Shown: positions 1-14,279 of the stretch, piece by piece | Position numbering within the stretch: the first letter of the stretch is position 1 | How the letters are laid out: each line of letters opens with the position of its first letter | From: a virus | Taxonomy: Duplodnaviria > Heunggongvirae > Uroviricota > Caudoviricetes | Reading direction: 5' to 3' (one strand) | Virus record (IMG/VR): IMGVR_UViG_2681813004_000022 | Length of the DNA: 38,772 nucleotides | Notes under the pieces: model-generated | Databases searched by the model: none | Seen by the model: the letters and a program-made list of their open reading frames with translations, nothing else | What the model was told of the DNA's origin: nothing | Position numbers and translations under genes: made by a program

Positions 1-1053
1 TTACGGGGTAATGCCAACCGCTGCCGCCACTTTGTCGCCACTTGGCAGCGTTGCCAGAGGATTGAAACGGAGCGCCGTTTCCAGATGATCCGGTGCCAGA
101 TGAGCGTAACGCATAGTCATTTTTATATCGTGATGTCCGAGGATTTTTTGCAAAGCAAGGATATTTCCACCCGACATCATGAAATGCGCCGCAAACGTAT
201 GGCGCAGAACGTGTGTCAGTTGACCGCGAGGGAGCACGATTGACGTTTTTTCCATCACGGATAAAAATTGAAAATAGCAGTCTGTGAAGAAATTGAACCC
301 ATCAAGCGCCATGATCTCTTCATAAAGCTCTTTACTGATAGGGATGCTTCTGTTTTTCTTCCCCTTCGTTCTTACAAAGGTAATTCGGTATTTAGTCACC
401 TGTGATCGGGTAAGGTTTATTGCTTCTCGCCAGCGTGCGCCTGTGCTTAAGCATATCTTGACTACCAGTGCCAGAATTGGGTCCTGACGTTTGCAATCAG
501 CCAGCAGTTCAACAATCTGCTCATGGGTAAGCCATGCCATCTCTTTTTCTGCGATGGTGAATTTTCGCATGTTCTCCAGTGGGTTTGGATACGACCATTC
601 GCCCAGGCGGGATAGTTCGCTAAAAACACTACTTAGATAGCTTTGCTCCAGGTTAATGGTGACCGGGCTTGCTCCTTTCTTCCATTTCTCGCTGAAGTAG
701 ATCTCACCTGTCAGGCGTTTATCTCGATAGTGGGCAAACATTTTAGAGGTGAGATCGGTTGCAAGGGGATTGCCCAGAGCGTCAACCATCAACAGCAATT
801 TATCATAGACATGCTGCCCAGCGGTTAGAGATTTACCATGTAGTTTGAACCATAGCTCAACCACGTCTTTCAGTGTTCGACGATCCACTGATTCTCCCAG
901 CCAGGGCTTTGCTTCGGTTTCTTCCATCGTATGGCGCTCAAAAGCCAGAGCTTCGCCTTTGGTGGCGAATTGTTTACGCACACGACGCCCACTACGTCCG
1001 GCGGGGTAACATTCGCAAAGCCATTTTCCTGTGGTGAGTTTTCGTACTGCCAT
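1..1053 (-). CDS. int: Tyrosine integrase (P2 Int-like)
   Basis: ORF 1-1131 minus; likely ATG at 1053 preceded by GGAGGG RBS. C-terminal RHTFA...GH...Y catalytic motif region and N-terminal similarity to P2 Int (MA..KL..G). Confidence 0.9.
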   Translation of the reverse strand: MAVRKLTTGKWLCECYPAGRSGRRVRKQFATKGEALAFERHTMEETEAKPWLGESVDRRTLKDVVELWFKLHGKSLTAGQHVYDKLLLMVDALGNPLATDLTSKMFAHYRDKRLTGEIYFSEKWKKGASPVTINLEQSYLSSVFSELSRLGEWSYPNPLENMRKFTIAEKEMAWLTHEQIVELLADCKRQDPILALVVKICLSTGARWREAINLTRSQVTKYRITFVRTKGKKNRSIPISKELYEEIMALDGFNFFTDCYFQFLSVMEKTSIVLPRGQLTHVLRHTFAAHFMMSGGNILALQKILGHHDIKMTMRYAHLAPDHLETALRFNPLATLPSGDKVAAAVGITP

Positions 1054-1239
1054 AAAAAATGCCCTCCAATAGAGAGCATTTTTACTGTATATATAACCAG
1101 TGTCAATGTATGAAATCCTGCGACCATACATCTCACTGAAGCCATAATGAAGTTGGCTATTTTTTGCTATGTGAGTATGTGACTTTTGCGGTTAGCCTGC
1201 GGCTCATTGTTATATTAGGCGCAGATATAAAAGCAAAAT

Positions 1240-2395: not shown

Positions 2396-2905
2396 ATGTT
2401 TGATTACCAAGTTTCCAAACATCCACATTTTGATGAAGCCTGTCGTGCATTCGCATTGCGCCACAACCTAGTGCAACTGGCAGAACGTGCAGGCATGAAT
2501 GTGCAGATTCTGCGGAACAAGCTGAACCCAGCTCAACCTCATTTATTAACCGCACCAGAAATCTGGTTGCTTACCGATCTGACTGAAGATTCAACGCTGG
2601 TAGATGGCTTTCTGGCACAGATTCACTGCCTGCCATGTGTACCGATTAATGAGGTGGCAAAAGAGAAACTGCCGCATTACGTCATGAGTGCAACTGCAGA
2701 GATAGGGCGTGTCGCGGCAGGTGCGGTTTCTGGCGATGTAAAAACCAGTGCAGGCCGTCGTGATGCGATCAGCAGCATTAACTCTGTTACACGACTGATG
2801 GCGCTGGCTGCTGTTTCATTGCAGGCCCGTTTACAGGCTAATCCTGCGATGGCGAGTGCAGTTGATACCGTGACTGGCCTCGGTGCTTCATTCGGTTTGC
2901 TGTGA
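2396..2905 (+). CDS. cII: CII-like phage regulatory protein
   Basis: About 169 aa from ATG 2396, second gene of the early operon as in phage 186; recognised by position and size, not verified by search. Confidence 0.55.
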
Positions 2906-2912
2906 GGTGCTT

Positions 2913-3113
2913 ATGCTGACGAAAGAACCATCATTTGCATCGCTGCTGGTAAAACAAAGTCCGGCAATGCACTACGGTCACGGCTGGATCATGGGTGAGG
3001 ATGGTAAACGCTGGCATCCGTGCCGTTCACAAGATGAATTGCTGGCAGAACTATCTACGAAAAAACGGGGGAACAAATGGCTATTGAAGGCGCTGCGGCG
3101 ACTGTTCCATTAA
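2913..3113 (+). CDS. Hypothetical early protein (Fil-like position)
   Basis: ORF with GAGGTG RBS and ATG 2913; early operon context. Confidence 0.45.
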   Translation: MLTKEPSFASLLVKQSPAMHYGHGWIMGEDGKRWHPCRSQDELLAELSTKKRGNKWLLKALRRLFH

Positions 3114-3418
3114 GACCCGGTGAACGCCTGAATGGACTTAATCATATTGCGGAGTTAAGGGCGAAAGTTTTTGGTTTGAATATTGAGTCAGAGCTTGAGC
3201 GGTTTATTAAAGATATGCGTGATCCTCGGGATATCAATAATGAACAAAATAAACGGGCACTGGCTGCCATATTCTTTATGGCAAAAATTCCAGCTGAACG
3301 TCATAGCATCAGCATTAATGAGCTGACCACTGACGAAAAGCGGGAGTTGATTAAAGCAATGAATCATTTTCGTGCAGTGGTGAGCTTATTTCCCAGACGG
3401 CTAACCATGCCGAATTAA
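3077..3418 (+). CDS. Hypothetical early protein
   Basis: 113-aa ORF, GGGGGAA RBS before ATG 3077, overlaps the previous gene end. Confidence 0.45.
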   Translation: MAIEGAAATVPLRPGERLNGLNHIAELRAKVFGLNIESELERFIKDMRDPRDINNEQNKRALAAIFFMAKIPAERHSISINELTTDEKRELIKAMNHFRAVVSLFPRRLTMPN

Positions 3419-3485
3419 CCAACTAATGAAATTAATGGCGTAAACCCGCCGGGCATCCCTTTATCTAAATTCAGGAGAATTGCTT

Positions 3486-3719
3486 ATGCGTAATATTGAA
3501 ACCCTCACGACCAAAACCGGACCGAATGATGCAGGTCTTAATCTTTTACTGACAGAGGCTCGTCTGGAAGAACGCCGGGCAAGGGCTGAAGCAATGGCTG
3601 CTCGCCTCGATAGCCTGGCGTATCATATCACCTCCCGCCAGCTAAACCACGTCGAAGCGGCAGAACTGCTGCGTGTGACTGCTGAAGCAATCCAGAACGA
3701 AGCGCAGGAGATCCACTGA
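3486..3719 (+). CDS. Hypothetical early protein
   Basis: ORF with AGGAG RBS; stop overlaps the next start (TGATG). Confidence 0.45.
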   Translation: MRNIETLTTKTGPNDAGLNLLLTEARLEERRARAEAMAARLDSLAYHITSRQLNHVEAAELLRVTAEAIQNEAQEIH

Positions 3720-3946
3720 TGGCTGATGCAATGGATCTCGTACAGCAGCGCGTTGAAGAAGAACGCCAACGCCATATCCGTGCTGCCCGTGCCAAAACGC
3801 CGGGCGTGTCCCGCGTGCTTTGCGTTGAGTGTGAAGCGCCAATTCCGCCAGCACGCCGCCGTGCCATTCCGGGTGTGCAGCTTTGCATTACCTGTCAGGA
3901 AATCGCAGAGCTGAAAGGCAAACATTACAACGGAGGTGCTGTATGA
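3719..3946 (+). CDS. TraR/DksA-family C4 zinc-finger protein
   Basis: 75 aa with CxxC...CxxC pairs (CVECEAPIP...LCITCQ) typical of the TraR/DksA zinc finger; start overlaps the upstream stop. Confidence 0.65.
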   Translation: MADAMDLVQQRVEEERQRHIRAARAKTPGVSRVLCVECEAPIPPARRRAIPGVQLCITCQEIAELKGKHYNGGAV

Positions 3947-4800
3947 GCACCATCCTGAAATGGGCAGGAAATAAAACCGCCATAATGTCCGAACTGAAAA
4001 AGCATCTTCCTGCTGGCCCGCGACTGGTTGAACCTTTCGCGGGTTCCTGTGCAGTGATGATGGAGACGGATTATCCCAGCTATCTTGTTGCGGATATTAA
4101 TCCTGATTTAATCAACCTCTATAAAAAGGTTGCTGCTGATTGTGAGGCGTTTATATCTCGTGCCAGAGCTTTATTTGAGGAAGCAAACAGGGAGGTGGCT
4201 TATTACAACATAAGGCAGGAGTTTAATTACTCCACTGAAATTACTGATTTCATGAAAGCGGTATATTTCCTGTATCTCAATCGTCACGGTTACCGTGGTT
4301 TATGTCGCTATAACAAGAGCGGGCATTTCAACATTCCCTACGGTAATTATAAAAATCCGTATTTCCCTGAAAAAGAAATTCGCGCATTTGCAGAGAAAGC
4401 CCAGCGGGCAACGTTTATCTGCGCCAGCTTTGATGAAACGCTGGCGATGTTGAAGGCGGGGGATGTGGTGTATTGCGATCCGCCTTATGACGGTACGTTT
4501 TCCGGCTATCACGCTGACGGCTTTACTGAAGATGACCAGTATCACCTGGCATCCGTTCTTGAACATCGGTCATCAGAAGGACATCCGGTCATTGTTTCTA
4601 ACAGTGACACATCCCTGATCCGTTCGCTGTATCGCAATTTTACTCACCACTATATCAAGGTAAAACGCAGCATCGGCGTAGCAGCTGGTGAGAGTAAATC
4701 AGCAACAGAAATCATTGCTGTTTCCGGGCCGCGCTGCTGGGTGGGATTTGATTATTCGCGTGGCGTGGATAGTTCTGCCGTGTACGGAGTACGTGCATGA
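3943..4800 (+). CDS. dam: DNA adenine methyltransferase (Dam-like, N6-A MTase with DPPY motif)
   Basis: Motifs [32 protein letters not shown] and DPPY align with E. coli Dam as I recall it; GGAGG RBS; ATG overlaps the upstream stop. Confidence 0.9.
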
Positions 4801-7211
4801 GCCATGCCGATATGAGCAACTGCTGCGGCTTTAACGAGGCTGCCGCATCGTTCTCATGGAACAGCCCGAAAAAGGCCATTAACCCTTATCTGGACCCGGC
4901 GGAAGTTGCGCCGGTTTCTGCGCTTTCAAACCTGATCACTCTGTACGCTGCCGATAACGAGCAGGAACAACTGCGCCGCGAGGCACTGAGTGATCAGGTC
5001 TGGGAGCGTTATTTCTTTAATGAATCCCGTGATCCTGTCCAACGCGAAATAGAGCAGGATAAGCTCATTAGCCGGGCAAAGTTGGCGCATGAGCAGCAGC
5101 GTTTTAACCCGGACATGGTCATTCTGGCAGACGTCAGCGCCCAGCCCTCCCATATCAGCAAGCCGCTGATGCAACGTATTGAATACTTCAGCAGCCTGGG
5201 CAGGCCAAAGGCTTATTCCCGCTATTTACGTGAGACGATTAAGCCATGTCTGGAACGACTGGAGCATGTACGCGACAGCCAGCTATCTGCATCTTTTCGT
5301 TTTATGGCAAGCCATGTAGGGCTGGACGGCCTGCTGATTCTGCCTGAAATGAGTCAGGATCAGGTGAAACGCCTGTCTACCCTTGTCGCTGCGCATATGA
5401 GCATGTGCCTTGATGCAGCTTGTGGTGATTTGTATGCCACCGATGACGTTAAGCCAGAAGAAATCCGCAAGACATGGGAAAAGGTGGCAGCGGAAACCCT
5501 GCGTCTGGATGTCATCCCGCCTGCGTTTGAGCAACTCCGTCGGAAAAGAAACCGCCGTAAACCCGTGCCCTATGAACTCATTCCGGGTTCGCTGGCGCGT
5601 ATGTTGTGCGCCGACTGGTGGTACCGGAAATTATGGAAAATGCGTTGCGAATGGCGGGAAGAGCAGTTGCGTGCTGTCTGCCTGGTCAGCAAAAAAGCAT
5701 CTCCCTATGTCAGCTATGAAGCCGTGATGCATAAACGTGAGCAGCGCCGCAGGTCACTGGAGTTTTTCCGTTCTCATGAACTGGTGAACGAAGAGGGCGA
5801 CACGCTGGATATGGAAGACGTGGTAAACGCCAGCAGCAGCAACCCGGCGCACCGCCGCAATGAGATGATGGCCTGTGTTAAAGGTCTGGAGCTTATCGCG
5901 GAAATGCGCGGTGACTGCGCCGTTTTCTACACCATTACCTGTCCGTCACGTTTCCATTCCACGCTCAATAACGGCAGACCAAACCCAACCTGGACAAATG
6001 CGACGGTAAGACAAAGCAGCGATTATCTGGTCGGCATGTTTGCTGCATTTCGTAAGGCGATGCACAAAGCCGGGTTGCGCTGGTATGGCGTGCGGGTGGC
6101 TGAGCCGCATCATGACGGTACAGTTCACTGGCACCTGTTGTGTTTCATGCGCAAAAAAGACCGCCGCGCCATTACTGCATTGTTGCGTAAGTTTGCCATC
6201 CGTGAAGACCGCGAGGAACTGGGTAATAACACTGGTCCACGCTTTAAATCTGAGCTGATAAACCCGCGCAAAGGAACGCCGACAAGCTACATCGCGAAAT
6301 ACATCAGTAAGAACATTGACGGGCGTGGTCTGGCTGGCGAGATCAGCAAGGAAACGGGTAAATCCCTGCGTGATAACGCTGAATACGTTAATGCCTGGGC
6401 GTCTCTGCATCGTGTTCAGCAATTCCGCTTCTTTGGTATTCCGGGACGTCAGGCTTACCGTGAACTTCGCTTGCTGGCTGGTCAGGCGGCAAGGCAACAG
6501 GGTGACAAAAAAGCAGGTGCGCCGGTACTGGATAACCCGCGTCTTGATGCCATTCTGGCTGCTGCTGATGCTGGTTGTTTTGCCACCTACATCATGAAGC
6601 AGGGCGGCGTACTGGTTCCCCGCAAATATCACCTCATCAGAACCGCTTATGAAATCAACGAAGAGCCAACCGCCTATGGCGATCACGGTATTCGTATTTA
6701 TGGCATCTGGTCACCCATTGCAGAGGGCAAGATCTGCACTCATGCAGTGAAGTGGAAAATGGTTCGTAAGGCCGTTGACGTTCAGGAGGCGGCAGCCGAC
6801 CAGGGCGCTTGCGCCCCTTGGACTCGTGGCAATAACTGTCCCCTTGCTGAAAATTTGAACCAACATGAGAAAGATGAATCAGCAGATGGGGATACCAGAA
6901 CGGACATTACCTGCATGGATGACAAGGAATTGCACGATTACCTGCACAGTATGAGCAAAAAAGAGCGCCGGGAACTGGCAGCAAGATTGCGCCTGGTTAA
7001 ACCGAAACGGCGTAAAGACTACAAACAGCGAATTACAGAGTATCAGCGTCAGCAGCTCGTCTATGAACTGAAGTCCAGAGGATTTGATGGCAGCGAGAAA
7101 GAGGTCGATTTGCTCCTTTGCGGTGGCAGTATTCCGTCAGGAGCAGGCCTGCGTATCTTCTATCGGAACCAGCGTTTGCAGGAAGATGATAAGTGGCGGA
7201 ACCTGTATTAA
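4797..7211 (+). CDS. A: Replication initiation endonuclease (P2 gpA-like rolling-circle initiator)
   Basis: 804 aa; HUH-like motif (GTVHWHLL) and paired tyrosines (YIAKYISK) characteristic of gpA-type initiators; ATGA overlap with dam. Confidence 0.85.
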
Positions 7212-7364
7212 TCACGCGGGTTAACAATTCGTGCTCTTAATAATACCAGGCATATCAGGCTGATGAACGTAAAAAAACGTTTTACATCAGTAAGATTATT
7301 ATATACTGTAAATATAAACAGTGGTTATATGTACAGTATTGCGTATGGTGTTATAGGAGGAAAG

Positions 7365-7553
7365 ATGCAGGACTATTTTTTGGAGTCTTTGAAGCTCCAG
7401 CGCATTGATTTTTTTCTTAAGCTTGTAGCGGCTAGTGAGTGTAGTGATGAAGAGAAGGGGCTAGCTCTGCAGTGGGTTTCTGAATTGACTGATGAGTTGA
7501 TGGCGAAAATTCGAAGCCATGAATACAGTAGGTCGATGGATGTAATCAGTTGA
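7365..7553 (+). CDS. Small acidic hypothetical protein (62 aa)
   Basis: AGGAGG RBS 5 nt before ATG 7365; followed by an intrinsic terminator. Function unknown. Confidence 0.4.
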   Translation: MQDYFLESLKLQRIDFFLKLVAASECSDEEKGLALQWVSELTDELMAKIRSHEYSRSMDVIS

Positions 7554-7585
7554 GCTTGTTTCGTTAGGACTTGATAAGGGAACCG

Positions 7586-7608
7586 AAAAGGGGCATTAAG
7601 CCCCTTTC
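7586..7608. terminator. Bidirectional intrinsic terminator between convergent genes
   Basis: GGGGC-ATTAA-GCCCC hairpin flanked by an A-run on the left and a T-run on the right. Confidence 0.5.
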
Positions 7609-7620
7609 TCATAAGTTGAT

Positions 7621-7920
7621 TTAGTTGTTACCCAAAGAGCCGGCCATGGCTGCATATTTAATTTCTTCGCTGGGTATTTCAGGATGTAGTTGAATTTGCC
7701 TGATGATATAGCCAGGAACTTCTTCACTCCACAGTTTCGCCGCGTCCTTACAGACCTTATACGCGAAGTCTCTATTCTCAAAGGCATAGGATTTTCCGTA
7801 TGCATATTGCTGACAGGCATGAACATAAGCTCCGAAGTCGCCGTCTTTATCTGGCAAAGCACATCCAGCTAAGGCTATGATGATTGCTACTAACGTAAAG
7901 GAGAAAGTTATACGTTTCAT
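7621..7920 (-). CDS. Small lipoprotein (99 aa), function unknown
   Basis: Signal peptide with lipobox LAGC (MKRITFSFTLVAIIIALAGC). Confidence 0.6.
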   Translation of the reverse strand: MKRITFSFTLVAIIIALAGCALPDKDGDFGAYVHACQQYAYGKSYAFENRDFAYKVCKDAAKLWSEEVPGYIIRQIQLHPEIPSEEIKYAAMAGSLGNN

Positions 7921-8028
7921 GGTCTCTTTCTAAGCGTTTAGCATTATTTAACTAAGGGGTATCTGCCGTGATTTGGTAGTCCCTGATATATATTCTCAGG
8001 GACTATGCTGAAGTAGCTTTAATTTTGA

Positions 8029-8835
8029 TTATTTAGAAAGGTACTTATCTCTAAGTTGATTCAGTCTGTCAGCATCGCGTTCTGAAAACTCGGCGTCACC
8101 ATAGATCGATTTCCCATCTGCGTCTTCAAGGCCAATGACTGTGACGGTAAATATAGCATCAGCCGGAACTTTAAGTTTTCCCCAATCAGAGTATCTATTA
8201 GGGGCTAATTTCCAGTTGGCTTTCTCACCTGGTTCCAGACCTCCAGAAATTTTATAGTTGAAGACGTCAGAGAACCAAGGGACGCTTCTTCCTGGGCTGG
8301 CAATAACTCCTTTGAAGAATACTCTGGCAACCGCTTTGTCTGTTTCGTTTTCAACGCTAATATCTAGAATTGGCTGATCATTGCCGTAATCCTCTTTCTG
8401 GAAATAAAAACGGGAACGTTCGACCTTGAAGGCTTTCATTTTTTCCGCAGCCTGTGTTGCAGAGGTTTGTTTGGCTTCCAGTTCTTTTATTTCTTGCAGA
8501 GCCTGTTCTTTCTCTCTCTTCTCACGCTCAAGGCGAATAGTTTGTGCGTAATTTATAACCTCATCACCAGTTTTACCTTCCAACGCTGACTTAATTTTTG
8601 TTTCGTAGACGTCCCCAGAAGACGTTCCAGCCTGCATTAGCTCTCTCATGTTGATTTGGCTAAAGGCAACGACTTTAACTGCATCATCAAACTGAGCTTT
8701 TTTATCTGCAGGTAAGGACTCTCTTACTTTTTGAATGGACTCTTTCATCGACTGATCGCTTGATGCATCGATCTTCGGTTTGTCACAAGCAGTAAGCAGC
8801 AGAGCAAAAGCAATTACGCCAGTTAATTTCTTCAT
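8029..8835 (-). CDS. Lipoprotein (about 268 aa), function unknown
   Basis: Probable start MKKLTGVIAFALLLTAC (lipobox LTAC) at 8835 with AGGGA RBS; the longer ORF-track start at 8907 would translate a hairpin/T-run. Confidence 0.6.
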   Translation of the reverse strand: MKKLTGVIAFALLLTACDKPKIDASSDQSMKESIQKVRESLPADKKAQFDDAVKVVAFSQINMRELMQAGTSSGDVYETKIKSALEGKTGDEVINYAQTIRLEREKREKEQALQEIKELEAKQTSATQAAEKMKAFKVERSRFYFQKEDYGNDQPILDISVENETDKAVARVFFKGVIASPGRSVPWFSDVFNYKISGGLEPGEKANWKLAPNRYSDWGKLKVPADAIFTVTVIGLEDADGKSIYGDAEFSERDADRLNQLRDKYLSK

Positions 8836-8852
8836 ATCCCTATCCCAATCGT

Positions 8853-8884
8853 AAAAAAACAAGGCTAATCCTAACAGGATTAGC
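8853..8884 (-). terminator. Terminator-like hairpin plus T7 run in the leader immediately 5' of the lipoprotein gene
   Basis: On the minus strand GCTAATCC-TGTTA-GGATTAGC followed by CTTG and TTTTTTT, ending about 18 nt before the ATG. Confidence 0.3.
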
Positions 8885-9357
8885 GGGCATGACAAACTCA
8901 TAGCCATATAGGTGTGCTGTATAAATTAGCGGGATGAGAAAGCCTGCACAGACCCTCATGTTGAAACTTGATTTTAGCTCAAAAGAGCTGACACTAAATA
9001 ACTGCGCGGAATAATGCTCCACTTTCGGTTAGCCCTTGGCCCTTGCTGGGTAAGGCGTGGGGCCGTTTTCTTCGCCTGATCCTGCTGTATCTGGCCTACA
9101 GTATGTTGTCCTTACGCGACATGCCACATGTCAGTAAACGGCAGGTGTAGCAGTATTAGACGCAGCTATTTAGTGTGTATTAAGCTGGCTCATATTTATG
9201 ACTGGTTTCAAGGTTTGACCGATTTTCATGTCATGCATGTCTATGCTGCATGAGTTCGCATGATCGTTTGAGGATCGGTTTGGCTAAGACATGCCAGAAC
9301 TGGCGGGCTTTTGCTCATGTCATGCAGGTGCATGAAAACTACTACATAAAGCGGGCA

Positions 9358-9376
9358 GGCGTGGCGGGGATACGAG
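9358..9376. other. Candidate cos site (cohesive-end sequence)
   Basis: GGCGTGGCGGGGATACGAG: the first 13 nt match the 186 cos as I recall it (GGCGTGGCGGGGAAAGCAT; P2 GGCGAGGCGGGGAAAGCAC), followed by CGCGCGC as in P2. Lies between A and Q as expected. Confidence 0.4.
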
Positions 9377-9523
9377 CGCGCGCAAGGTATAGAAACAGTC
9401 GTTTGTTTACAAACAGATACTATGATTTTCAATGTTCTTTCAAATTGTTGCTTTAAGATAGCAGGTAGATGTTTGTAGTTGTTGCGTGAACTGATAAGCT
9501 TCAACAACTATCGAGGAAAGGAT

Positions 9524-10591
9524 ATGAAGCGGCTAACTGAAGAACAAATTGAACATTCTTTGATCAGAGCAAGGAAGATTGCGAAGCGGGAGTCAAGAAA
9601 GCTTTCTGGTGGAAGACGGATGCTACAGCCCATGCGGGTATTCTCTCGTGTGAGAATACCCGCGCCTGCGTCATTGGACTTATTTAATACTAAAAATTAC
9701 AAACTATTTATAGAGTTTATCACTTTAATCAGAGATTACATCAATGATGGTGAGAAAATTTTAATAGATTTCAGAAATACAAAATCTCTGAAAGCATGTG
9801 CAGTAATCGTATTGTATGCACATATTGACTTTTTACAAAGGCAAACAAAAGATAAAAATATAATTTCTATTACTACGTGCGGTTCATCCAGGGCAAATAA
9901 CTGGTTTAAAATATGTGGTATTTGGGGGATTACAGGGTTTCAGCGTATAGCTGCAGATAAGCTTAATTCAATGGAAATTGTTTCCGCTGTTGCAGGCAAA
10001 ACTAGAGATGATCATGAAAGTGCCGAAGCAAGACAAAAAATTAAAAATATTCTACGTTATATAAAAGATACCATTTATGAAGGTAAGATTTCCGCTTCGG
10101 ATGGTGTGAAATTATATGCAGCCTTAACTGAATCTATTAGCAATGTTGGTCTACATGCGTATTCAAATGAAGAACAGTTCTCTGAATTTATTGAGGACAT
10201 TGGTAAAAGATGGTGGATATTGGCACACAAAGTCGAAGAACAACTATTTTTGATGGTGTATGATATGGGAGAAGGTATCCCAGTTACATTGGTTAAAAAA
10301 GACTTTTTCACATTTATCGCTCAGATATTTAATCCTAAGACGGATTCTGATAAAATATTCGCGGCTGTACAGTATGGTGAGACAAGAATGAATAGTCAGA
10401 AGCATGGTAAAGGATTACCTGATATGAAAAGGTATGTTGTAGATAACCCTGAGGGGCAGTTACATATTTTTAGTGGAATGGGACGATATTCTTATGATGC
10501 TGAAAATAATGTTGAAGATAAATTTGATCTGCCATACTCCATAGGTGGAACCCTTATTCAATGGAATGTAAGTTTGAGAGGTGCTGAATGA
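9524..10591 (+). CDS. GHKL-type (histidine-kinase-like) ATPase / putative Ser kinase, cargo gene 1
   Basis: Bergerat-fold motifs in order: N-box ESISNVGLHAY, G1 YDMGEGIP, G2 HGKGLPD. About 170 aa of N-terminal extension. GAGGAAAGG RBS before ATG 9524. AT-rich. Confidence 0.65.
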   Translation: MKRLTEEQIEHSLIRARKIAKRESRKLSGGRRMLQPMRVFSRVRIPAPASLDLFNTKNYKLFIEFITLIRDYINDGEKILIDFRNTKSLKACAVIVLYAHIDFLQRQTKDKNIISITTCGSSRANNWFKICGIWGITGFQRIAADKLNSMEIVSAVAGKTRDDHESAEARQKIKNILRYIKDTIYEGKISASDGVKLYAALTESISNVGLHAYSNEEQFSEFIEDIGKRWWILAHKVEEQLFLMVYDMGEGIPVTLVKKDFFTFIAQIFNPKTDSDKIFAAVQYGETRMNSQKHGKGLPDMKRYVVDNPEGQLHIFSGMGRYSYDAENNVEDKFDLPYSIGGTLIQWNVSLRGAE

Positions 10592-10908
10592 AAATCAAAG
10601 AGATACATGTTGCTGAAGATTTTTCAGATGTTCCCTATGGCCGCTATGATGAGGATGGTCCTGATAATGGACAACGTTTCCGTGAAAAGTATCTTTTGAA
10701 AGCCATCCAAGATTATGATGAGGTGCACGTGTACCTTGATGGTGCTATGGGTTATGGTTCTTCATTCTTGGAAGAGGCGTTTGGTGGACTTTATAGAACA
10801 AATAATATAGATAAAGCTATAATTAGGAAAAAATTAAAAATATTTACTGATTTGGATTTCCTCAAGGATAGTATATGGGGATATATTTCTGATGCTAAAA
10901 AGGAGTGA
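10588..10908 (+). CDS. Small STAS-like protein (anti-sigma-antagonist-like), cargo gene 2
   Basis: 106 aa; VHVYLDGAMGYGSSFLEEAFGGL resembles the STAS core, and I recall the DUF4325 STAS-like family having a conserved SFL motif. ATGA overlap with gene 1. Confidence 0.55.
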   Translation: MKIKEIHVAEDFSDVPYGRYDEDGPDNGQRFREKYLLKAIQDYDEVHVYLDGAMGYGSSFLEEAFGGLYRTNNIDKAIIRKKLKIFTDLDFLKDSIWGYISDAKKE

Positions 10909-11402
10909 TGTTCATGGATGAACTTCCGGTTTATCTGCGGTTATTACAATACCTTGCTAGTTCAGGTGTGATTGCAATTCTAACAGCCTTGATTGGTTGG
11001 GTTTTTGTTTATAGAAACTCCCGTGCGTTGCAAAAGAGGAGTGAAACATGGGCAATTGTAAAAAATGTTTCAGATAATTTAAAGGAAATTGAATCTGCAT
11101 CAAGAAAGTTTTGGATACCGGGAGATTCAAAAGAAATTGATGCAATGTCATTTCAAAATGAGATAACAGCACTTCTTGCGGAGACCGAGCGGTGGTTGAA
11201 TCATCTAAAACAACGCATTAATATCGAAGGTGACTATAAACCTTTGATTGCTGATTTATTCAAAGATGCTACATCTAATATTGAAAAAGCACAGGAGTAT
11301 GATAAAAGTCAAAGGACAAGAATTAGTGTATTAGTGTCAAAAAGGGCGAAAATAATTAAATCTCTAATTGATGAGTCTTATCAGAAAAAATTCTTAAAGT
11401 GA
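10905..11402 (+). CDS. Single-pass membrane protein with helical C-terminal domain, cargo gene 3
   Basis: 165 aa; hydrophobic helix LRLLQYLASSGVIAILTALIGWVFV near the N-terminus, charged helical remainder; start overlaps gene 2 stop. Confidence 0.6.
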   Translation: MMFMDELPVYLRLLQYLASSGVIAILTALIGWVFVYRNSRALQKRSETWAIVKNVSDNLKEIESASRKFWIPGDSKEIDAMSFQNEITALLAETERWLNHLKQRINIEGDYKPLIADLFKDATSNIEKAQEYDKSQRTRISVLVSKRAKIIKSLIDESYQKKFLK

Positions 11403-11410
11403 TAATTTGT

Positions 11411-11439
11411 TACGGCACGGTAGTGCCGTAGTTTTTTTT
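11411..11439 (+). terminator. Intrinsic terminator closing the cargo operon
   Basis: ACGGCAC-GGTA-GTGCCGT hairpin followed by eight T residues, 9 nt after the gene 3 stop. Confidence 0.6.
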
Positions 11440-11487
11440 CTTATTATGTGTTGAGCGATGGATGTCCTATTAAGTGATGTAAATGTA

Positions 11488-12516
11488 TCAGAATGAATAT
11501 ATTTCAAATTCTATTATTTTTTTATCAAGCCATTCATTTATCTCTCCTAAGCGCTTTTGTAATGGTATAAGTTCGTTTCGTACAAACACTTTACTTGCTT
11601 TCTCCACATCCCCAAACCCCCCAACATTATTCGGCATAATCCCCATCATTTGCGGCGGCACGCGGTGCGCTGCCATCATGTCATCCCGACTCACGTTCTT
11701 GATATTTAGAAACTCATCCTTCGCCGCAACTTCTGACAAAGGGATGATCTGAAGGCCGTCCTTTTTGCCGTTAGGCGAGTACATAAACAGGTTGCGGAAG
11801 TTACCCGGACCTTTGGCACTTTTCATTGCATTGCGGAGGTTGTTCACGTCCTCCTGGTTCTGCGCAGCATCGGTCATGTACATGATGAAGCCTGCATGAC
11901 TACCGTTAATGTAATACTTGCGGCGGAACAGCGTGGCAGACTCATTGAGCAGGGCGGACGGAATGGCAGAAAGATAGCCGGGCAGGCCGTAGATCTCCTG
12001 GTTAATGTCCGGTTCCATCAGATGAAAAATGCTGCCTTTCGTGAACTGATACGGCTGGGTTGTCATACCGTATTGCACAAACCAGTAGGTATCCAGGTCT
12101 AACCCGCGTCGGGTGTATTTTGCCAGAGCAGGCTCAAGGGCGATAACTTCACCGAAGCGGTTCGTGCGTTTCTCCAGGTAGGCGTTACCAAATACCAGAT
12201 AGTCCTGCACAAAACGTGAAAAAGCCTGCTGGCTGAGCAGCGGGTGAGGGATGTAGGTACTGGTCAGAATGTTGCATTTTACTGCAATCGGTGAGCTGTG
12301 ATGCACGGCAGCGCGGAAGGTTCGTGCCAGTCCGTCAAAGCTGACGGGCGGCTCATACCAGCGGTCCATCTGTACGCATTCCACATAGTCCAGCAGTTCA
12401 CGGCGGTCCAGAACAGGAACGGGATCGCCAAAGCTGAATGCTTCGGCTGAAGTCTGGCTTTTATGCTTGAGCTGATTCGTCGCCGCAGCGCGGTTTTTCT
12501 TACTCTTTCCCATCAA
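11488..12516 (-). CDS. Q: Portal protein (P2 gpQ-like)
   Basis: 342 aa (P2 Q is about 344), immediately downstream of P on the same strand. Confidence 0.9.
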   Translation of the reverse strand: MMGKSKKNRAAATNQLKHKSQTSAEAFSFGDPVPVLDRRELLDYVECVQMDRWYEPPVSFDGLARTFRAAVHHSSPIAVKCNILTSTYIPHPLLSQQAFSRFVQDYLVFGNAYLEKRTNRFGEVIALEPALAKYTRRGLDLDTYWFVQYGMTTQPYQFTKGSIFHLMEPDINQEIYGLPGYLSAIPSALLNESATLFRRKYYINGSHAGFIMYMTDAAQNQEDVNNLRNAMKSAKGPGNFRNLFMYSPNGKKDGLQIIPLSEVAAKDEFLNIKNVSRDDMMAAHRVPPQMMGIMPNNVGGFGDVEKASKVFVRNELIPLQKRLGEINEWLDKKIIEFEIYSF

Positions 12517-14279
12517 AAAATCTCCACAATATTGCTGGTATTGGCGGATTCGCCCTGCAGCGGTTCGTTAAACAGTGCGTGCATCGTTGCCCAGGCCAGA
12601 TCGGCGTGGCTGGCTTCTTCGCTACGGCTGGCTTCATAGGTCGGGCGGTTGCCGCTGGCGGTGGTGGCGCGACGGATTGCCATGAATGACTGCGCAATGT
12701 CGGTGTGCCCGGCGTCAAACTCCAGACGGCGGTGGCTGATAATGTCGTAGGCCTTGAGTACCAGGGCGTTTTTAACATTGGGGTTGTAGACAAACTCCCG
12801 GACGGCAGGAAAGAACGCTTTCACGTTCTCATAAACCCCGTGACCAACGCCGGTTGAGTCGATACCGATATAGGTCACGTTGTACTGTTCGGTGAGTTTT
12901 TTGATGGCGTCAGCCTGGGCGCGGAAGTCCATCCCGCGCCACTGGTGACGCTCAAGAATGCGGAACTTACCACCCGGCACGGCTGGCGGAGCCACCACCA
13001 CGCATCCGGCACTGTCGCCGTTCTGCGTACCTTTTGCCGGGTCATAACCGATCCACACTTCGCGCCAGCCAAACGGGCGCAGGGCCAGTGCATGAAAGTC
13101 GGTCCAGACTTCCCAGCTGTCCACCATGCACGCCTGCAGTTCGCTGAGCGGGAACACGGACGCGAGATCGTCCACGAACTCACACATCAGCAGATTCTGG
13201 TATTCGTCCGGGCTGTACTCCATGCGCAACTGGTCAAGGTCGAACAGGTTACATCCGCCGCGCACCGCATCTTCCACAGTGACTATCTGGCGGTACTGCC
13301 CGTCTGCGCACAGCAGGCCGGGGGCCAGATTGCTGTGGGACAGGTCGATGTCCACCTTATCGGCTTTGTTGCGTCCACGGTTGAACAGCGCACCGGACCA
13401 GAACGGATAAGCACTGTGGGTCAGGCTGGATGGCGTGGAAAAATAGGTTTGTCGCCATTTTTTGTGAATAGCCATCCCGGAAGCCACTTTGCGCAGCTCC
13501 TGGAATTTCGGTATCCAGAAATATTCATCCAGGTACAGGTTGCCGTGATAACTCTGGGCCGTGCGGGCATTGGTGCCGAGGAAGTAAAGCGTGGCTCCGT
13601 TAGGAAGCACCATCGGATCGCCTTTTAGCTCCACCTCGACTTCTTTGGCGAAGTCGATGATGTATTGTTTAAAGACGTGGGCCTGAGCCTTACTGGCAGA
13701 AAGGAAAATCTGGTTACGTCCGGTAAGCAGGGCGTCAATCAGGGCTTCACGGGCAAAATAGAAGGTCGCGCCGATCTGGCGTGACTTCAGCAGGTTGCGG
13801 ATGCGGTTGGTTTTTCCGGCTTCCCACCAGTGGCGCTGGTAGTTGAACATGGAGGAATGGAAGATTTCTTCCAGCTTCTCAATCTGCTCATCGGTGAAAA
13901 CATTCTTTTCCGGCTGACGGCGTGGGCCTTTATTGCGGTTGGCGACGTTAGGGTTTAAGTCGGCTTCGTTGCCGCCATTGTTAAACTTGCCGATCCGCGC
14001 GTGGCGCTCAGACTGGCGCGCCAGCAGGTCAATCTCTTTGAAATCTTTCCCTTCTTTGTGCTCCTTCATAATGAGCTGGCAGTAGCGTGCGGCGGTGGTG
14101 AGCTGCATCTGATCCAGCGGCCCATAGTCACCCCACTTGTCGCGTTTTTTCCAGCTGTGAACGGTTGCAACTTTCTCGCCCAGCATTTCAGCAATGCGGG
14201 CTACGCGGTATCCCTGAAAGTACAGCAGCATGGCCTGCCGACGGGGATCGAGATCTGCGGGTGTCAGTGTGGTGTTCAT
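12513..14279 (-). CDS. P: Terminase large (ATPase) subunit (P2 gpP-like)
   Basis: 588 aa (P2 P is about 590); divergent from O as in P2. Confidence 0.9.
   Translation of the reverse strand: MNTTLTPADLDPRRQAMLLYFQGYRVARIAEMLGEKVATVHSWKKRDKWGDYGPLDQMQLTTAARYCQLIMKEHKEGKDFKEIDLLARQSERHARIGKFNNGGNEADLNPNVANRNKGPRRQPEKNVFTDEQIEKLEEIFHSSMFNYQRHWWEAGKTNRIRNLLKSRQIGATFYFAREALIDALLTGRNQIFLSASKAQAHVFKQYIIDFAKEVEVELKGDPMVLPNGATLYFLGTNARTAQSYHGNLYLDEYFWIPKFQELRKVASGMAIHKKWRQTYFSTPSSLTHSAYPFWSGALFNRGRNKADKVDIDLSHSNLAPGLLCADGQYRQIVTVEDAVRGGCNLFDLDQLRMEYSPDEYQNLLMCEFVDDLASVFPLSELQACMVDSWEVWTDFHALALRPFGWREVWIGYDPAKGTQNGDSAGCVVVAPPAVPGGKFRILERHQWRGMDFRAQADAIKKLTEQYNVTYIGIDSTGVGHGVYENVKAFFPAVREFVYNPNVKNALVLKAYDIISHRRLEFDAGHTDIAQSFMAIRRATTASGNRPTYEASRSEEASHADLAWATMHALFNEPLQGESANTSNIVEIF

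What the first reader, a model, noticed from the sequence alone, without database searches (positions are those of the whole stretch)
7621..8884. Two lipoprotein genes in the old/tin accessory position with a terminator-like leader hairpin
Two consecutive minus-strand genes encode lipoproteins (lipoboxes LTAC and LAGC) of unknown function at the locus where P2 carries old and tin. Prophage-encoded lipoproteins are an established way to block phage receptors (T5 Llp and phi80 Cor are the paradigm), so exclusion is a plausible role. A GC hairpin plus T7 run ends only about 18 nt upstream of the first start codon, which suggests attenuation or a processed 5' end rather than a simple promoter.
Basis: partly seen in the sequence, partly recalled or inferred. 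Interest (0 to 1): 0.5.

Follow-up and report, generated by a model that had tools for sequence, protein, structure and literature searches.

The report
Two-lipoprotein moron in P2-like prophage
A P2-family prophage of E. coli carries a self-contained two-gene cassette for two lipoproteins of unknown function, one from a widespread family (DUF6694) that keeps turning up inside phage tail modules and next to anti-phage systems; the "leader hairpin" upstream overlaps the cassette's own promoter and is not an attenuator.

Summary
The sequence observation holds. Two minus-strand genes encode lipoproteins: 8029-8835 (268 aa, LTAC) and 7621-7920 (99 aa, LAGC). They lie between replication gene A and cos, the old/tin-equivalent slot. 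A 9-bp hairpin plus T7 run ends 17 nt before the ATG, but only 4 of its 9 pairs are G-C.

- **Cassette.** Bases 7555-9233 form a low-GC insertion replacing the DinI-like gene of related prophages. It has its own promoter, an intercistronic stem-loop and a terminator, so it is a classic "moron". Both genes are under strong purifying selection (dN/dS 0.05-0.15).
- **Hairpin.** Its 3' arm is the -10 box of an extended -10 promoter (TTGTCA-16-TGtTAGGAT). That promoter is conserved in orthologues down to 45% protein identity. The 5' arm is lost in the phage-plasmid lineage. Attenuation is not supported.
- **DUF6694 context.** The family recurs in tail modules of unrelated phages, in phage-plasmids, and beside WYL/BREX and restriction genes.
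- **99-aa protein.** It is confined to enterobacterial mobile elements and almost always follows another lipoprotein gene.

Envelope-level phage exclusion is the best guess, though probably not by receptor masking.

The parts
7555..9233 (.). Inserted accessory cassette (moron plus flanking junk) between orf62 and the cos block. It replaces the DinI-like gene of related prophages.
   Evidence: Homology to reference prophage L017 covers only 7000-7554 and 9234-9385. GC is about 42% against 52-57% in core genes. L017 has A - orf62 - DinI - cos.
8029..8835 (-). DUF6694 family lipoprotein, 268 aa. Signal peptide with lipobox LTAC and Asp at +2. Helical bundle, long helix, beta-sandwich and C-terminal helix.
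   Evidence: Pfam PF20404 E = 3.4e-22; phrog_7468; PGAP annotation. AF2 model pLDDT 87.9. dN/dS 0.05-0.15.
7621..7920 (-). 99-aa lipoprotein with lipobox LAGC and Ala at +2. The mature 79-aa part is predicted helical, with two further conserved Cys. The family is confined to enterobacterial mobile elements.
   Evidence: Only 3 real clusters among 1.84 billion representatives. phrog_7666. dN/dS 0.07-0.12. AF2 pLDDT 65.
8868..8895 (-). Predicted sigma-70 promoter of the cassette: -35 TTGTCA (8895-8890), 16-nt spacer, TG (8876-8875), -10 TAGGAT (8873-8868). Predicted start near 8862-8859.
   Evidence: Consensus scan. TG(T/A)TA(G/A)(G/A)AT is conserved 31-32 nt before the ATG in window, L018, L106, L109, L012, L015, L023, L063 and L007, although dS exceeds 2 between lineages.
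8864..8884 (-). Perfect 9-bp inverted repeat with a 3-nt loop (the 'leader hairpin'). Its 3' arm contains the -10 hexamer.
   Evidence: The 5' arm is kept in L018, L106 and L015 but destroyed in phage-plasmid copies L004 and L012.
8853..8859 (-). T7 run. It would be a terminator tail for transcripts arriving from upstream, and a U-rich start of the cassette's own mRNA.
   Evidence: A run of at least five T is kept in L018, L012, L015 and L063; in L106 a G interrupts it (TTTGTTT). It persists in L012 and L063 even though the hairpin is absent there.
8843..8846 (-). Shine-Dalgarno-like GGGA, 7 nt before ATG 8835.
   Evidence: Read from the sequence. GG(G/A)AUAGGGA is conserved in relatives.
7977..8005 (-). 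Intercistronic stem-loop (10-bp stem) 24 nt after the DUF6694 stop codon, with no T run.
   Evidence: Fold. Kept in L018, L106, L012 and L015 through G-U to Watson-Crick changes. It is the right-hand limit of homology in L015.
7586..7608 (-). Intrinsic terminator-like hairpin (GAAAGGGGC-UUAAU-GCCCCUUUU) after the 99-aa gene.
   Evidence: Fold gives -15.1 kcal/mol. It is the left-hand limit of homology with phage-plasmid copies, at 7586.
8836..8907 (-). In-frame upstream extension (ATG 8907), judged non-coding.
   Evidence: The extension differs in length and sequence between close relatives. PGAP and the homologues use the MKKL start.
9234..9385 (.). Conserved cos-region block of the prophage (GGCGTGGCGGGGA at about 9359-9371). 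It is the right-hand boundary of the slot.
   Evidence: The identification of the motif as a 186-type cos is from my own knowledge.

Best explanation
Bases 7555-9233 are a horizontally acquired 'moron' in the A-to-cos accessory slot of a P2-family (186/Fels-2-like) prophage.

Shown:
- The cassette replaces the DinI-like gene of relatives and has lower GC.
- It carries two genes under purifying selection, each encoding a protein with a lipoprotein signal peptide.
- The same two-gene unit, bounded at 7586 and 8876, also occurs in SSU5-like phage-plasmids.

Inferred from conservation:
- The cassette is transcribed from its own extended -10 sigma-70 promoter (TTGTCA-16-TGtTAGGAT). The -10 hexamer forms the 3' arm of the hairpin.
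- The cassette's own mRNA therefore starts at about 8862-8859 and lacks the 5' arm, so the hairpin cannot attenuate it.
- The mRNA has a roughly 25-nt U-rich leader, a GGGA Shine-Dalgarno, an intercistronic stem-loop that probably sets the ratio of the two products, and a terminator at 7608-7586.
- If the hairpin plus T run does anything as RNA, it stops transcripts arriving from upstream across cos. That would insulate the cassette.

Inferred function:
- Both products face the periplasm. DUF6694 (Cys-Asp-Lys) is probably retained in the inner membrane. The 99-aa protein (Cys-Ala) probably goes to the outer membrane.
- I propose they protect the lysogen at the envelope against other phages, acting after receptor binding by interfering with tail-tip or tape-measure passage or DNA delivery through the periplasm. 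Receptor masking seems less likely.
- DUF6694 would be the widely portable effector. The 99-aa protein would be an enterobacterial partner that always rides behind another lipoprotein.
For: Architecture:
- Insertion boundaries, GC, annotation.
- dN/dS 0.05-0.15 for both genes.
- The unit is conserved at 74% nucleotide identity in Citrobacter and Enterobacter phage-plasmids.

Promoter and hairpin:
- Promoter scan.
- The -10 box and T run are conserved while the 5' arm is lost at dS > 2.
- No minus-strand promoter-like site lies upstream of the hairpin, and there is no Rfam match.
- The palindrome is not repeated elsewhere in the window.

Function by context:
- The A-to-Q region is the documented P2 defence hotspot (PMC9122126; PMC9519451).
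- DUF6694 lipoprotein genes lie inside tail modules of four isolated phages.
- They lie directly upstream of the tape-measure gene in 8 Pseudomonas prophages. That is the slot of the HK97 gp15 exclusion moron (PMC3594210).
- In Alloalcanivorax the order is WYL regulator | DUF6694 - BrxA - BrxB, on an integrative island.
- Among 131 immediate neighbours, the commonest Pfam families are WYL (8), BrxA (4), ResIII (3) and SWI2_SNF2 (3). AAA_15, AAA_21, EcoEI_R_C and HNH also occur.
- Asp at +2 is found in the enterobacterial copies listed except Pectobacterium, which has Asn. The Lol-avoidance rule is from PMC9595528.
- The 99-aa gene follows a lipoprotein gene in 22 of 23 viral contigs.
Against: - There are no experimental data of any kind, and no paper mentions DUF6694.
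- Neither protein hits any PADLOC model.
- Many DUF6694 genes sit in ordinary-looking chromosomal places, for example after rplS in Pectobacterium and near GntR/peptidase M3 in Enterobacter.
- The neighbour tally has no matched control.
- 40-50% identity across phyla is unusually conservative for a protein in an arms race.
- The DUF6694 gene is broken or carries an IS1 insertion in some carriers, so it is dispensable.
- Whether Lys at +3 allows inner-membrane retention was not tested.
- The transcription start is predicted, not mapped.
Confidence: 0.4

Rival explanations
1. Receptor masking of the Cor/Llp type. [quoted passage not shown]
For: Both are lipoproteins encoded by a prophage. The 99-aa protein has Ala at +2, is small like Cor, Llp and Bor, and is confined to Enterobacteriaceae, as expected for a receptor-specific blocker. 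DUF6694 genes lie in tail modules, as cor and llp do (the cor/llp location is from my own knowledge).
Confidence: 0.15
2. Lysogenic-conversion or host-fitness factor unrelated to phages. The envelope lipoproteins would alter serum resistance, adhesion, envelope stress tolerance or cell-wall homeostasis, as with lambda Bor, TraT or Iss, or a housekeeping DUF6694 function copied by mobile elements.
Against: This does not explain repeated capture into tail operons of unrelated phages or placement between brxR-like and brxA genes. No Pfam hit to Bor or TraT.
Confidence: 0.25
3. The hairpin plus T7 run is a transcription attenuator or a processed, stabilising 5' end of the lipoprotein mRNA.
For: The hairpin is stable and non-random, with a U-tract 17 nt before the ATG. 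The two outer pairs change to G-U rather than break in L015, although two such events have about a 25% chance expectation.
Against: No promoter-like site lies upstream on that strand. There is no alternative antiterminator fold: the 141-nt region has z = -0.84. There is no Rfam family. The 5' arm is lost in the phage-plasmid lineage while the -10 box and T run persist. More distant orthologues keep the promoter without any hairpin.
Confidence: 0.07
4. The 21-bp perfect palindrome overlapping the -10 box is an operator for a dimeric repressor, from phage or host, that gates expression of the cassette.
For: It has perfect dyad symmetry centred on the promoter. It sits at the edge of the transferred module in L015 and in plasmid pEH10-18-47_2.
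Against: There is no second copy, and half-sites are not enriched in the window: 7 observed against 6.9 expected. The cassette carries no regulator gene. The dyad is not conserved in phage-plasmids. In L015 the changes break DNA symmetry but keep RNA pairing.
Confidence: 0.1

Closest known systems
Phage T5 Llp and phi80/N15/HK022 Cor (outer-membrane lipoproteins that block FhuA)
   Same: Small phage-encoded lipoproteins with SPase II signals, carried as accessory genes. Related DUF6694 genes sit in tail modules, as llp and cor do.
   Different: No sequence similarity: Cor phrog_1119 matches only the signal peptide. No fold match. DUF6694 is about 25 kDa with Asp at +2 and spans several phyla. 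The 99-aa protein is predicted all-helical. No receptor is known.
HK97 gp15 moron (inner-membrane superinfection-exclusion protein that blocks DNA entry)
   Same: A moron with its own promoter and terminator, and with bacterial homologues outside prophages. In 8 Pseudomonas prophages and phage OQ658367, DUF6694 sits in the tail operon at or just upstream of the tape-measure gene, in or close to the gp15 slot (PMC3594210). An inner-membrane, periplasm-facing location is likely.
   Different: gp15 is a small transmembrane YebO-like protein, not a lipoprotein. There is no homology, and no exclusion phenotype has been shown here.
Streptococcus thermophilus TP-J34 Ltp (lipoprotein that blocks DNA injection by targeting the tape-measure protein)
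   Same: A lipid-anchored, largely helical extracytoplasmic protein made by a prophage. Its mechanism is the one proposed here.
   Different: It comes from a Gram-positive host and has a different fold (helix-turn-helix-like repeats, from my own knowledge). No sequence similarity was detected in the PDB sequence searches.
P2 old and tin (occupants of the same slot in P2)
   Same: The same genomic slot between gene A and cos, within the recognised P2 defence hotspot (PMC9122126).
   Different: old and tin are not exported lipoproteins (from my own knowledge). This cassette encodes exported lipoproteins with no nuclease or ATPase domains.
Lambda Bor, TraT and Iss (lipoproteins of mobile elements that confer serum resistance or surface exclusion)
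   Same: Small outer-membrane lipoproteins expressed from prophages or plasmids, about the size of the 99-aa protein.
   Different: No Pfam match to these families, and no phenotype data.

Membership tests
DUF6694 (Pfam PF20404) / NCBI 'DUF6694 family lipoprotein' | Significant match to the PF20404 profile above its gathering score | tested here: met
   79.2 bits against a cutoff of 24.3, E = 3.4e-22, residues 7-101. PGAP gives the same name. More than 350 homologues share the full two-domain architecture.
Bacterial lipoprotein (SPase II substrate) | N-terminal basic region, hydrophobic stretch and lipobox [LVI][ASTVI][GAS]C | tested here: met
   MKKLTGVIAFALLLTAC and MKRITFSFTLVAIIIALAGC. The Cys is nearly invariant or invariant in both families. 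Lipidation itself cannot be tested here.
Cor superinfection-exclusion family (phrog_1119) | Profile match over the mature protein | tested here: not met
   The only match is residues 1-20 (the signal peptide) of the DUF6694 protein, E = 0.053. The 99-aa protein has no match.
T5 Llp | Fold or sequence similarity to the solved Llp structure | tested here: not met
Known anti-phage defence systems (PADLOC-DB 2.0) | Match to any PADLOC protein model | tested here: not met
   No family at E <= 0.1 for either lipoprotein or for the neighbouring genes.
Phage moron (Juhala/Hendrix sense) | Extra DNA absent from related phages, with deviant GC content | tested here: met
   The cassette is absent from L017, which has DinI instead. 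GC is 42% against 52-57%.
Phage moron (Juhala/Hendrix sense) | Own promoter and own terminator | tested here: inconclusive
   A conserved extended -10 promoter and a terminator-like hairpin are predicted. Neither has been mapped experimentally.
Intrinsic (Rho-independent) terminator, for the 8884-8853 element | G+C-rich stem immediately followed by a U-tract | tested here: inconclusive
   The 9-bp stem has only 4 G-C pairs and -11.8 kcal/mol. The tail is CUUGUUUUUUU. It passes the loose scan, but termination efficiency is unknown.
Transcription attenuator or leader | A promoter upstream of the hairpin plus an alternative (antiterminator) structure or leader peptide, conserved with the gene | tested here: not met
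   No upstream promoter-like site. The 141-nt region folds no better than shuffles. No Rfam hit. The 5' arm is not conserved in phage-plasmid or more distant orthologues.
Two-component spanin (Rz/Rz1-like), considered because of the inner-membrane coiled-coil plus small outer-membrane lipoprotein pairing | Location in the lysis cassette and an embedded or adjacent i-spanin/o-spanin pair | tested here: not met
   The pair lies in the accessory slot, not with the lysis genes. In phage-plasmids it lies beside replication and recombination genes. The alternative upstream partner has Ala at +2.

The most novel reading that the evidence does not exclude
DUF6694 would define a widespread family, crossing several phyla, of periplasm-facing lipoprotein anti-phage effectors. 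These would block genome delivery by interfering with the tape-measure or tail-tip channel, making them a Gram-negative counterpart of Ltp and HK97 gp15. They would be traded among phage tail operons, phage-plasmids, the P2 cos-proximal hotspot and BrxR-controlled BREX and restriction islands. In enterobacterial elements the effector would work together with a dedicated 79-aa outer-membrane lipoprotein.
Probability: 0.22. Interest if true: 0.75.

Novelty: new variant of a known kind. Interest (0 to 1): 0.5.

Why it matters
Envelope-level exclusion is under-sampled in defence catalogues. One functional screen discarded clones suspected of affecting adsorption (PMC9519451), and none of these genes matches a PADLOC model.

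A lipoprotein family appears in P2-like prophages, SSU5-like phage-plasmids, lambda-like and other siphophage tail modules, and at the head of BREX loci. That makes it a concrete, cheaply testable candidate for a new class of exclusion protein.

If it acts on a conserved step of genome delivery, it would affect phage-therapy host range in E. coli, Klebsiella and Pseudomonas.

The promoter embedded in a terminator-like hairpin is also a compact example of how a moron could insulate itself from surrounding phage transcription.

Tried and rejected
- **Family scans.** Pfam, NCBIfam, PADLOC and PHROGs gave only DUF6694 and unnamed PHROGs.
- **Rfam.** No hit on 7000-9600 at E <= 1.
- **PDB sequence profiles.** Nothing for either family.
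- **Exhaustive profile search for the 99-aa family.** It found no distant relatives. The two extra hits are eukaryotic repeat junk.
- **Homology between the proteins.** The alternative 139/144-aa upstream lipoprotein is not related to DUF6694, and the two window lipoproteins are not related to each other. Only the signal peptides align.
- **P2-type cos sequence recalled from memory.** It did not match. The cos block was found by conservation instead.
- **Operator idea.** No other copy of the palindrome exists.
- **Spanin idea.** Rejected on location and on the partner's sorting signal.
- **Longer ORF from 8907.** Rejected because the extension is not conserved.
- **Literature.** No paper mentions DUF6694. 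Rousset et al. 2022 list the arrangement only as 'hypothetical' genes.
Full report
**What the window is.** The window is a P2-family prophage of E. coli.
- The integrase is at 1-1131 (-) and the replication endonuclease A at 4797-7211 (+). The portal Q is at 11488-12516 (-) and the terminase P at 12513-14279 (-).
- The stretch 7200-9480 is 100% identical to several E. coli chromosomes. It is complete in 20 of 5426 complete genomes.
- A 152-bp block (9234-9385) is conserved at about 90% in roughly 1400 E. coli genomes and in Fels-2, SopEPhi, RE2010 and other P2-like phages.
- That block contains GGCGTGGCGGGGA, which I recognise from my own knowledge as a 186-type cos core. The P2 cos sequence I recalled did not match.
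- The two lipoprotein genes therefore lie between gene A and cos, the slot where P2 carries old and tin. This is part of the documented gpA-to-gpQ defence hotspot (PMC9122126; PMC9519451).

**Checking the observation.**
- Both ORFs exist as described, and PGAP annotates the same coordinates.
- The 268-aa product starts MKKLTGVIAFALLLTAC-DKPKID. The 99-aa product starts MKRITFSFTLVAIIIALAGC-ALPDKD.
- The hairpin is GCTAATCCT-GTT-AGGATTAGC (8884-8864), followed by CTTG and T7 (8859-8853). There are 17 nt between the T run and the ATG at 8835.
- Its free energy is -11.8 kcal/mol, z = -4.5.
- It is the only perfect stem of 9 bp or more with a T-rich tail in the window, against 0.01 expected from shuffles.
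- It is not G+C-rich: 4 of 9 pairs.
- The in-frame extension to ATG 8907 is not conserved in length or sequence among close relatives. Homologues start at the MKKL-type Met. I therefore treat 8835 as the start.

**Anatomy of the cassette.**
- Against a typical relative (L017: A - 62-aa orf - DinI-like - cos - variable gene - portal), homology covers only 7000-7554 and 9234-9385. So 7555-9233 is an insertion that replaces dinI.
- GC is about 42%, against 52-57% in the core genes.
- The functional unit is smaller. SSU5-like phage-plasmids of Citrobacter and Enterobacter carry the same two genes at 74% nucleotide identity, over exactly 7586-8876.
- The left limit falls at a terminator-like hairpin (7608-7586, -15.1 kcal/mol). 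The right limit falls inside the promoter and hairpin region.
- Between the genes is a 10-bp stem-loop (8005-7977) with no T run. It is kept in four diverged lineages through G-U to Watson-Crick changes.
- Both genes are under strong purifying selection: dN/dS 0.05-0.15, with dS above 2 between the P2-like and phage-plasmid copies.
- A 189-bp piece (8985-9173) resembles DNA next to ISEc1 in an Rhs locus. It is absent from the P2-like carriers L018 and L106. It is unrelated junk.

**The hairpin.**
- The consensus scan finds one minus-strand promoter-like site in 7200-9500: TTGTCA (8895-8890), a 16-nt spacer, then TAGGAT (8873-8868) preceded by TG. This is an extended -10 promoter.
- Its -10 hexamer is the 3' arm of the hairpin.
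- I aligned the DNA upstream of DUF6694 genes from increasingly distant relatives. The motif TG(T/A)TA(G/A)(G/A)AT sits 31-32 nt before the ATG in the window, L018, L106, L109, L012, L015, L023 (53% protein identity), L063 (45%) and Pectobacterium L007 (60%).
- A TTGTC-type -35 at the same spacing is visible only in the P2-like and phage-plasmid copies.
- The 5' arm lies in the promoter spacer. It is kept only in the closest lineage and in L015. It is destroyed in the phage-plasmid copies (TTTGTATCTTT) and absent further out.
- Synonymous sites are saturated between the P2-like and phage-plasmid lineages. Survival of TGTTAGGATTA and CTTGTTTTT in non-coding DNA therefore indicates selection on the -10 box and on the T run, not on the stem.
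- No promoter-like site lies upstream of the hairpin on that strand. The wider region folds no better than shuffles. Rfam finds nothing.
- The predicted start (about 8862-8859) gives an mRNA that lacks the 5' arm. It begins near G-U7, followed by GGGA 7 nt before the ATG.
- I conclude that this is a simple promoter, and that the attenuator reading is not supported.
- The hairpin plus T run could still terminate transcripts entering from upstream across cos, which would insulate the moron. This is inference.
- An operator role has no support. There is no second copy and no half-site enrichment.
- The T run at the very start of the transcript could in principle permit UTP-sensitive reiterative transcription, as in upp and codBA (my own knowledge). 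This is pure speculation.

**The DUF6694 protein.**
- Pfam PF20404 matches residues 7-101.
- The whole 270-aa architecture is conserved in more than 350 clusters. These span Enterobacterales, Pseudomonas, Alcanivorax, Methylophaga, Desulfobacterota, Bacteroidota, Acidobacteriota and others, at 40-50% identity.
- The AlphaFold model is confident (pLDDT 87.9). It shows a lipid anchor, a three-helix bundle (27-85), one long helix (90-133), a beta-sandwich (136-245) and a terminal helix.
- The most conserved residues cluster in the sandwich: R183, P186, W187, G198, G199, E201 and E204.
- Nearly all enterobacterial copies examined have Cys-Asp-Lys; Pectobacterium has Asn at +2. Asp at +2 followed by certain residues at +3 is the Lol-avoidance signal (PMC9595528). 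Inner-membrane retention is therefore likely but unproven.

**The 99-aa protein.**
- It has only 14 clusters at 90% identity, all above 70% identical. There are three real clusters at 50% identity among 1.84 billion representatives.
- It is confined to P2-like prophages and to SSU5-like phage-plasmids: about 190 Klebsiella plasmids and several Klebsiella phages.
- Ala at +2 predicts outer-membrane sorting.
- The mature part has two further invariant Cys and a low-confidence four-helix model (pLDDT 65). No meaningful fold match was found.
- In 22 of 23 viral contigs it is immediately preceded by another lipoprotein gene. That gene is either DUF6694 (gap about 110 nt, containing the stem-loop) or an unrelated 139-aa Cys-rich lipoprotein (gap about 11 nt).
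- The downstream gene is therefore the constant partner, and the upstream lipoprotein is exchangeable.

**Context of DUF6694 elsewhere.** No neighbour is universal across 84 non-redundant loci, but several patterns recur.
- In eight Pseudomonas genomes the gene lies directly upstream of a tape-measure gene inside a prophage tail module.
- Four isolated phages carry it in or beside the tail module:
  - Pseudomonas phage OQ658367, before the tail and tape-measure genes;
  - E. coli phage PHB10, right after the tape-measure gene;
  - PseuP_222, between tail genes K and I;
  - Marinobacter AS1, between the integrase and the tail-fibre block.
- The slot upstream of the tape-measure gene is where HK97 carries the gp15 moron, an inner-membrane protein that blocks DNA entry (PMC3594210).
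- In Alloalcanivorax and Alcanivorax the gene is divergent from a WYL regulator. It is followed by BrxA and BrxB, by an HsdR-like enzyme, or by a helicase, on an island with DUF3987 and YagK/YfjJ genes.
- Three Pseudomonas loci have an AAA_11/AAA_12-MTES_1575-DUF3320 helicase-nuclease next door.
- I tallied Pfam families over 131 immediate neighbours. The leaders were WYL (8), BrxA (4), ResIII (3) and SWI2_SNF2 (3). AAA_15, AAA_21, EcoEI_R_C, HNH, AAA_13, N6_Mtase and PIN_8 also appeared. This tally has no matched control.
- Other copies sit in ordinary places: after rplS in Pectobacterium, and near GntR/peptidase M3 in Enterobacter.
- In E. coli the gene also occurs alone, flanked by IS elements, on small plasmids at 99% identity.
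- It is interrupted by IS1 or truncated in some prophages.

**Interpretation.**
- The architecture is well supported: a moron with its own promoter, two exported lipoproteins and a terminator.
- The function is inferred only from context. It rests on repeated capture by unrelated phages into tail operons, residence in the P2 hotspot, and adjacency to BREX and restriction genes under WYL regulators.
- These point to an envelope-level role in phage-phage or phage-host conflict.
- Three features argue against Cor/Llp-style masking of a specific receptor and favour a conserved periplasmic step such as tail-tip or tape-measure passage: Asp at +2, the long helix, and the distribution across phyla.
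- A phage-independent fitness role remains a serious rival. The family is broadly chromosomal and slowly evolving.

**Prior knowledge.**
- No paper in the library mentions DUF6694.
- A supplementary table of hotspot gene arrangements in Rousset et al. 2022 lists WP_001580533 + WP_001580534 (orf62 and the 99-aa protein) with further 'hypothetical' proteins. The main text does not mention lipoproteins.
- PADLOC has no model for either protein.
- Vassallo et al. 2022 did find a lipoprotein among new E. coli defence genes, but the two lipoproteins here match no PADLOC model.

**Verdict.** The Cor/Llp analogy and the attenuator idea are not supported.

Noticed in passing
window 9479-11402 (+): A three-gene low-GC (33-37%) cassette sits in the separate cos-to-portal slot. 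It encodes a 370-aa protein with a weak HATPase_c match, a 106-aa STAS-like DUF4325 protein and a 165-aa protein whose only weak PHROG hits include holin-like families. A strong terminator follows at about 11410-11440. None of the three hits PADLOC. It looks like an uncharacterised defence candidate.
   Followed up: partly
window 8985-9173: A 189-bp segment is 87% identical to unannotated DNA just upstream of an ISEc1 (ISAs1-family) transposase in an Rhs locus of another E. coli (L016). The otherwise homologous P2-like carriers L018 and L106 lack it, so it may be a small mobile or IS-associated fragment.
   Followed up: partly
window 7555-9233 compared with L017 3178-3500: The lipoprotein cassette has replaced the DinI-like gene that most related prophages carry between orf62 and cos.
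   Followed up: yes
H13/H14 (E. coli ECONIH4, CAVP776); L108, L109, L124: In some P2-like carriers the DUF6694 gene is interrupted by IS1 or has a truncated ORF, while the 99-aa gene stays intact. This suggests the upstream gene is dispensable or sometimes selected against.
   Followed up: partly
L027, L028, L034, L075 (Alloalcanivorax/Alcanivorax), about 2900-6600: A DUF6694 lipoprotein gene sits between a divergent WYL (BrxR-like) regulator and brxA-brxB, on an island with DUF3987 and YagK/YfjJ genes. In L034, in the unrefined first-start ORF calls, the ORF overlaps the brxA ORF by 4 nt.
   Followed up: partly
L005, L006 and L126-L144 (SSU5-like phage-plasmids), gene immediately upstream of the 99-aa homologue: A 139-144-aa Cys-rich lipoprotein (MIKKTLITGMSFIMVGC...), unrelated to DUF6694, takes the upstream position 11 nt before the 99-aa gene. 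It has no Pfam family.
   Followed up: partly
window 7263-7553 (+): The ORF lister gives 96 aa, but PGAP and phrog_698 support a 62-aa product starting at 7365. It is a conserved small gene of unknown function just after gene A in many P2-like prophages.
   Followed up: no
L002 and L003 (E. coli plasmids pEH10-18-47_2 and pYLPM4b): The DUF6694 gene alone, without the 99-aa gene, occurs at 99% identity on 12.6-kb and 29-kb plasmids flanked by IS remnants. In L002 the homology starts exactly at the base of the hairpin.
   Followed up: partly
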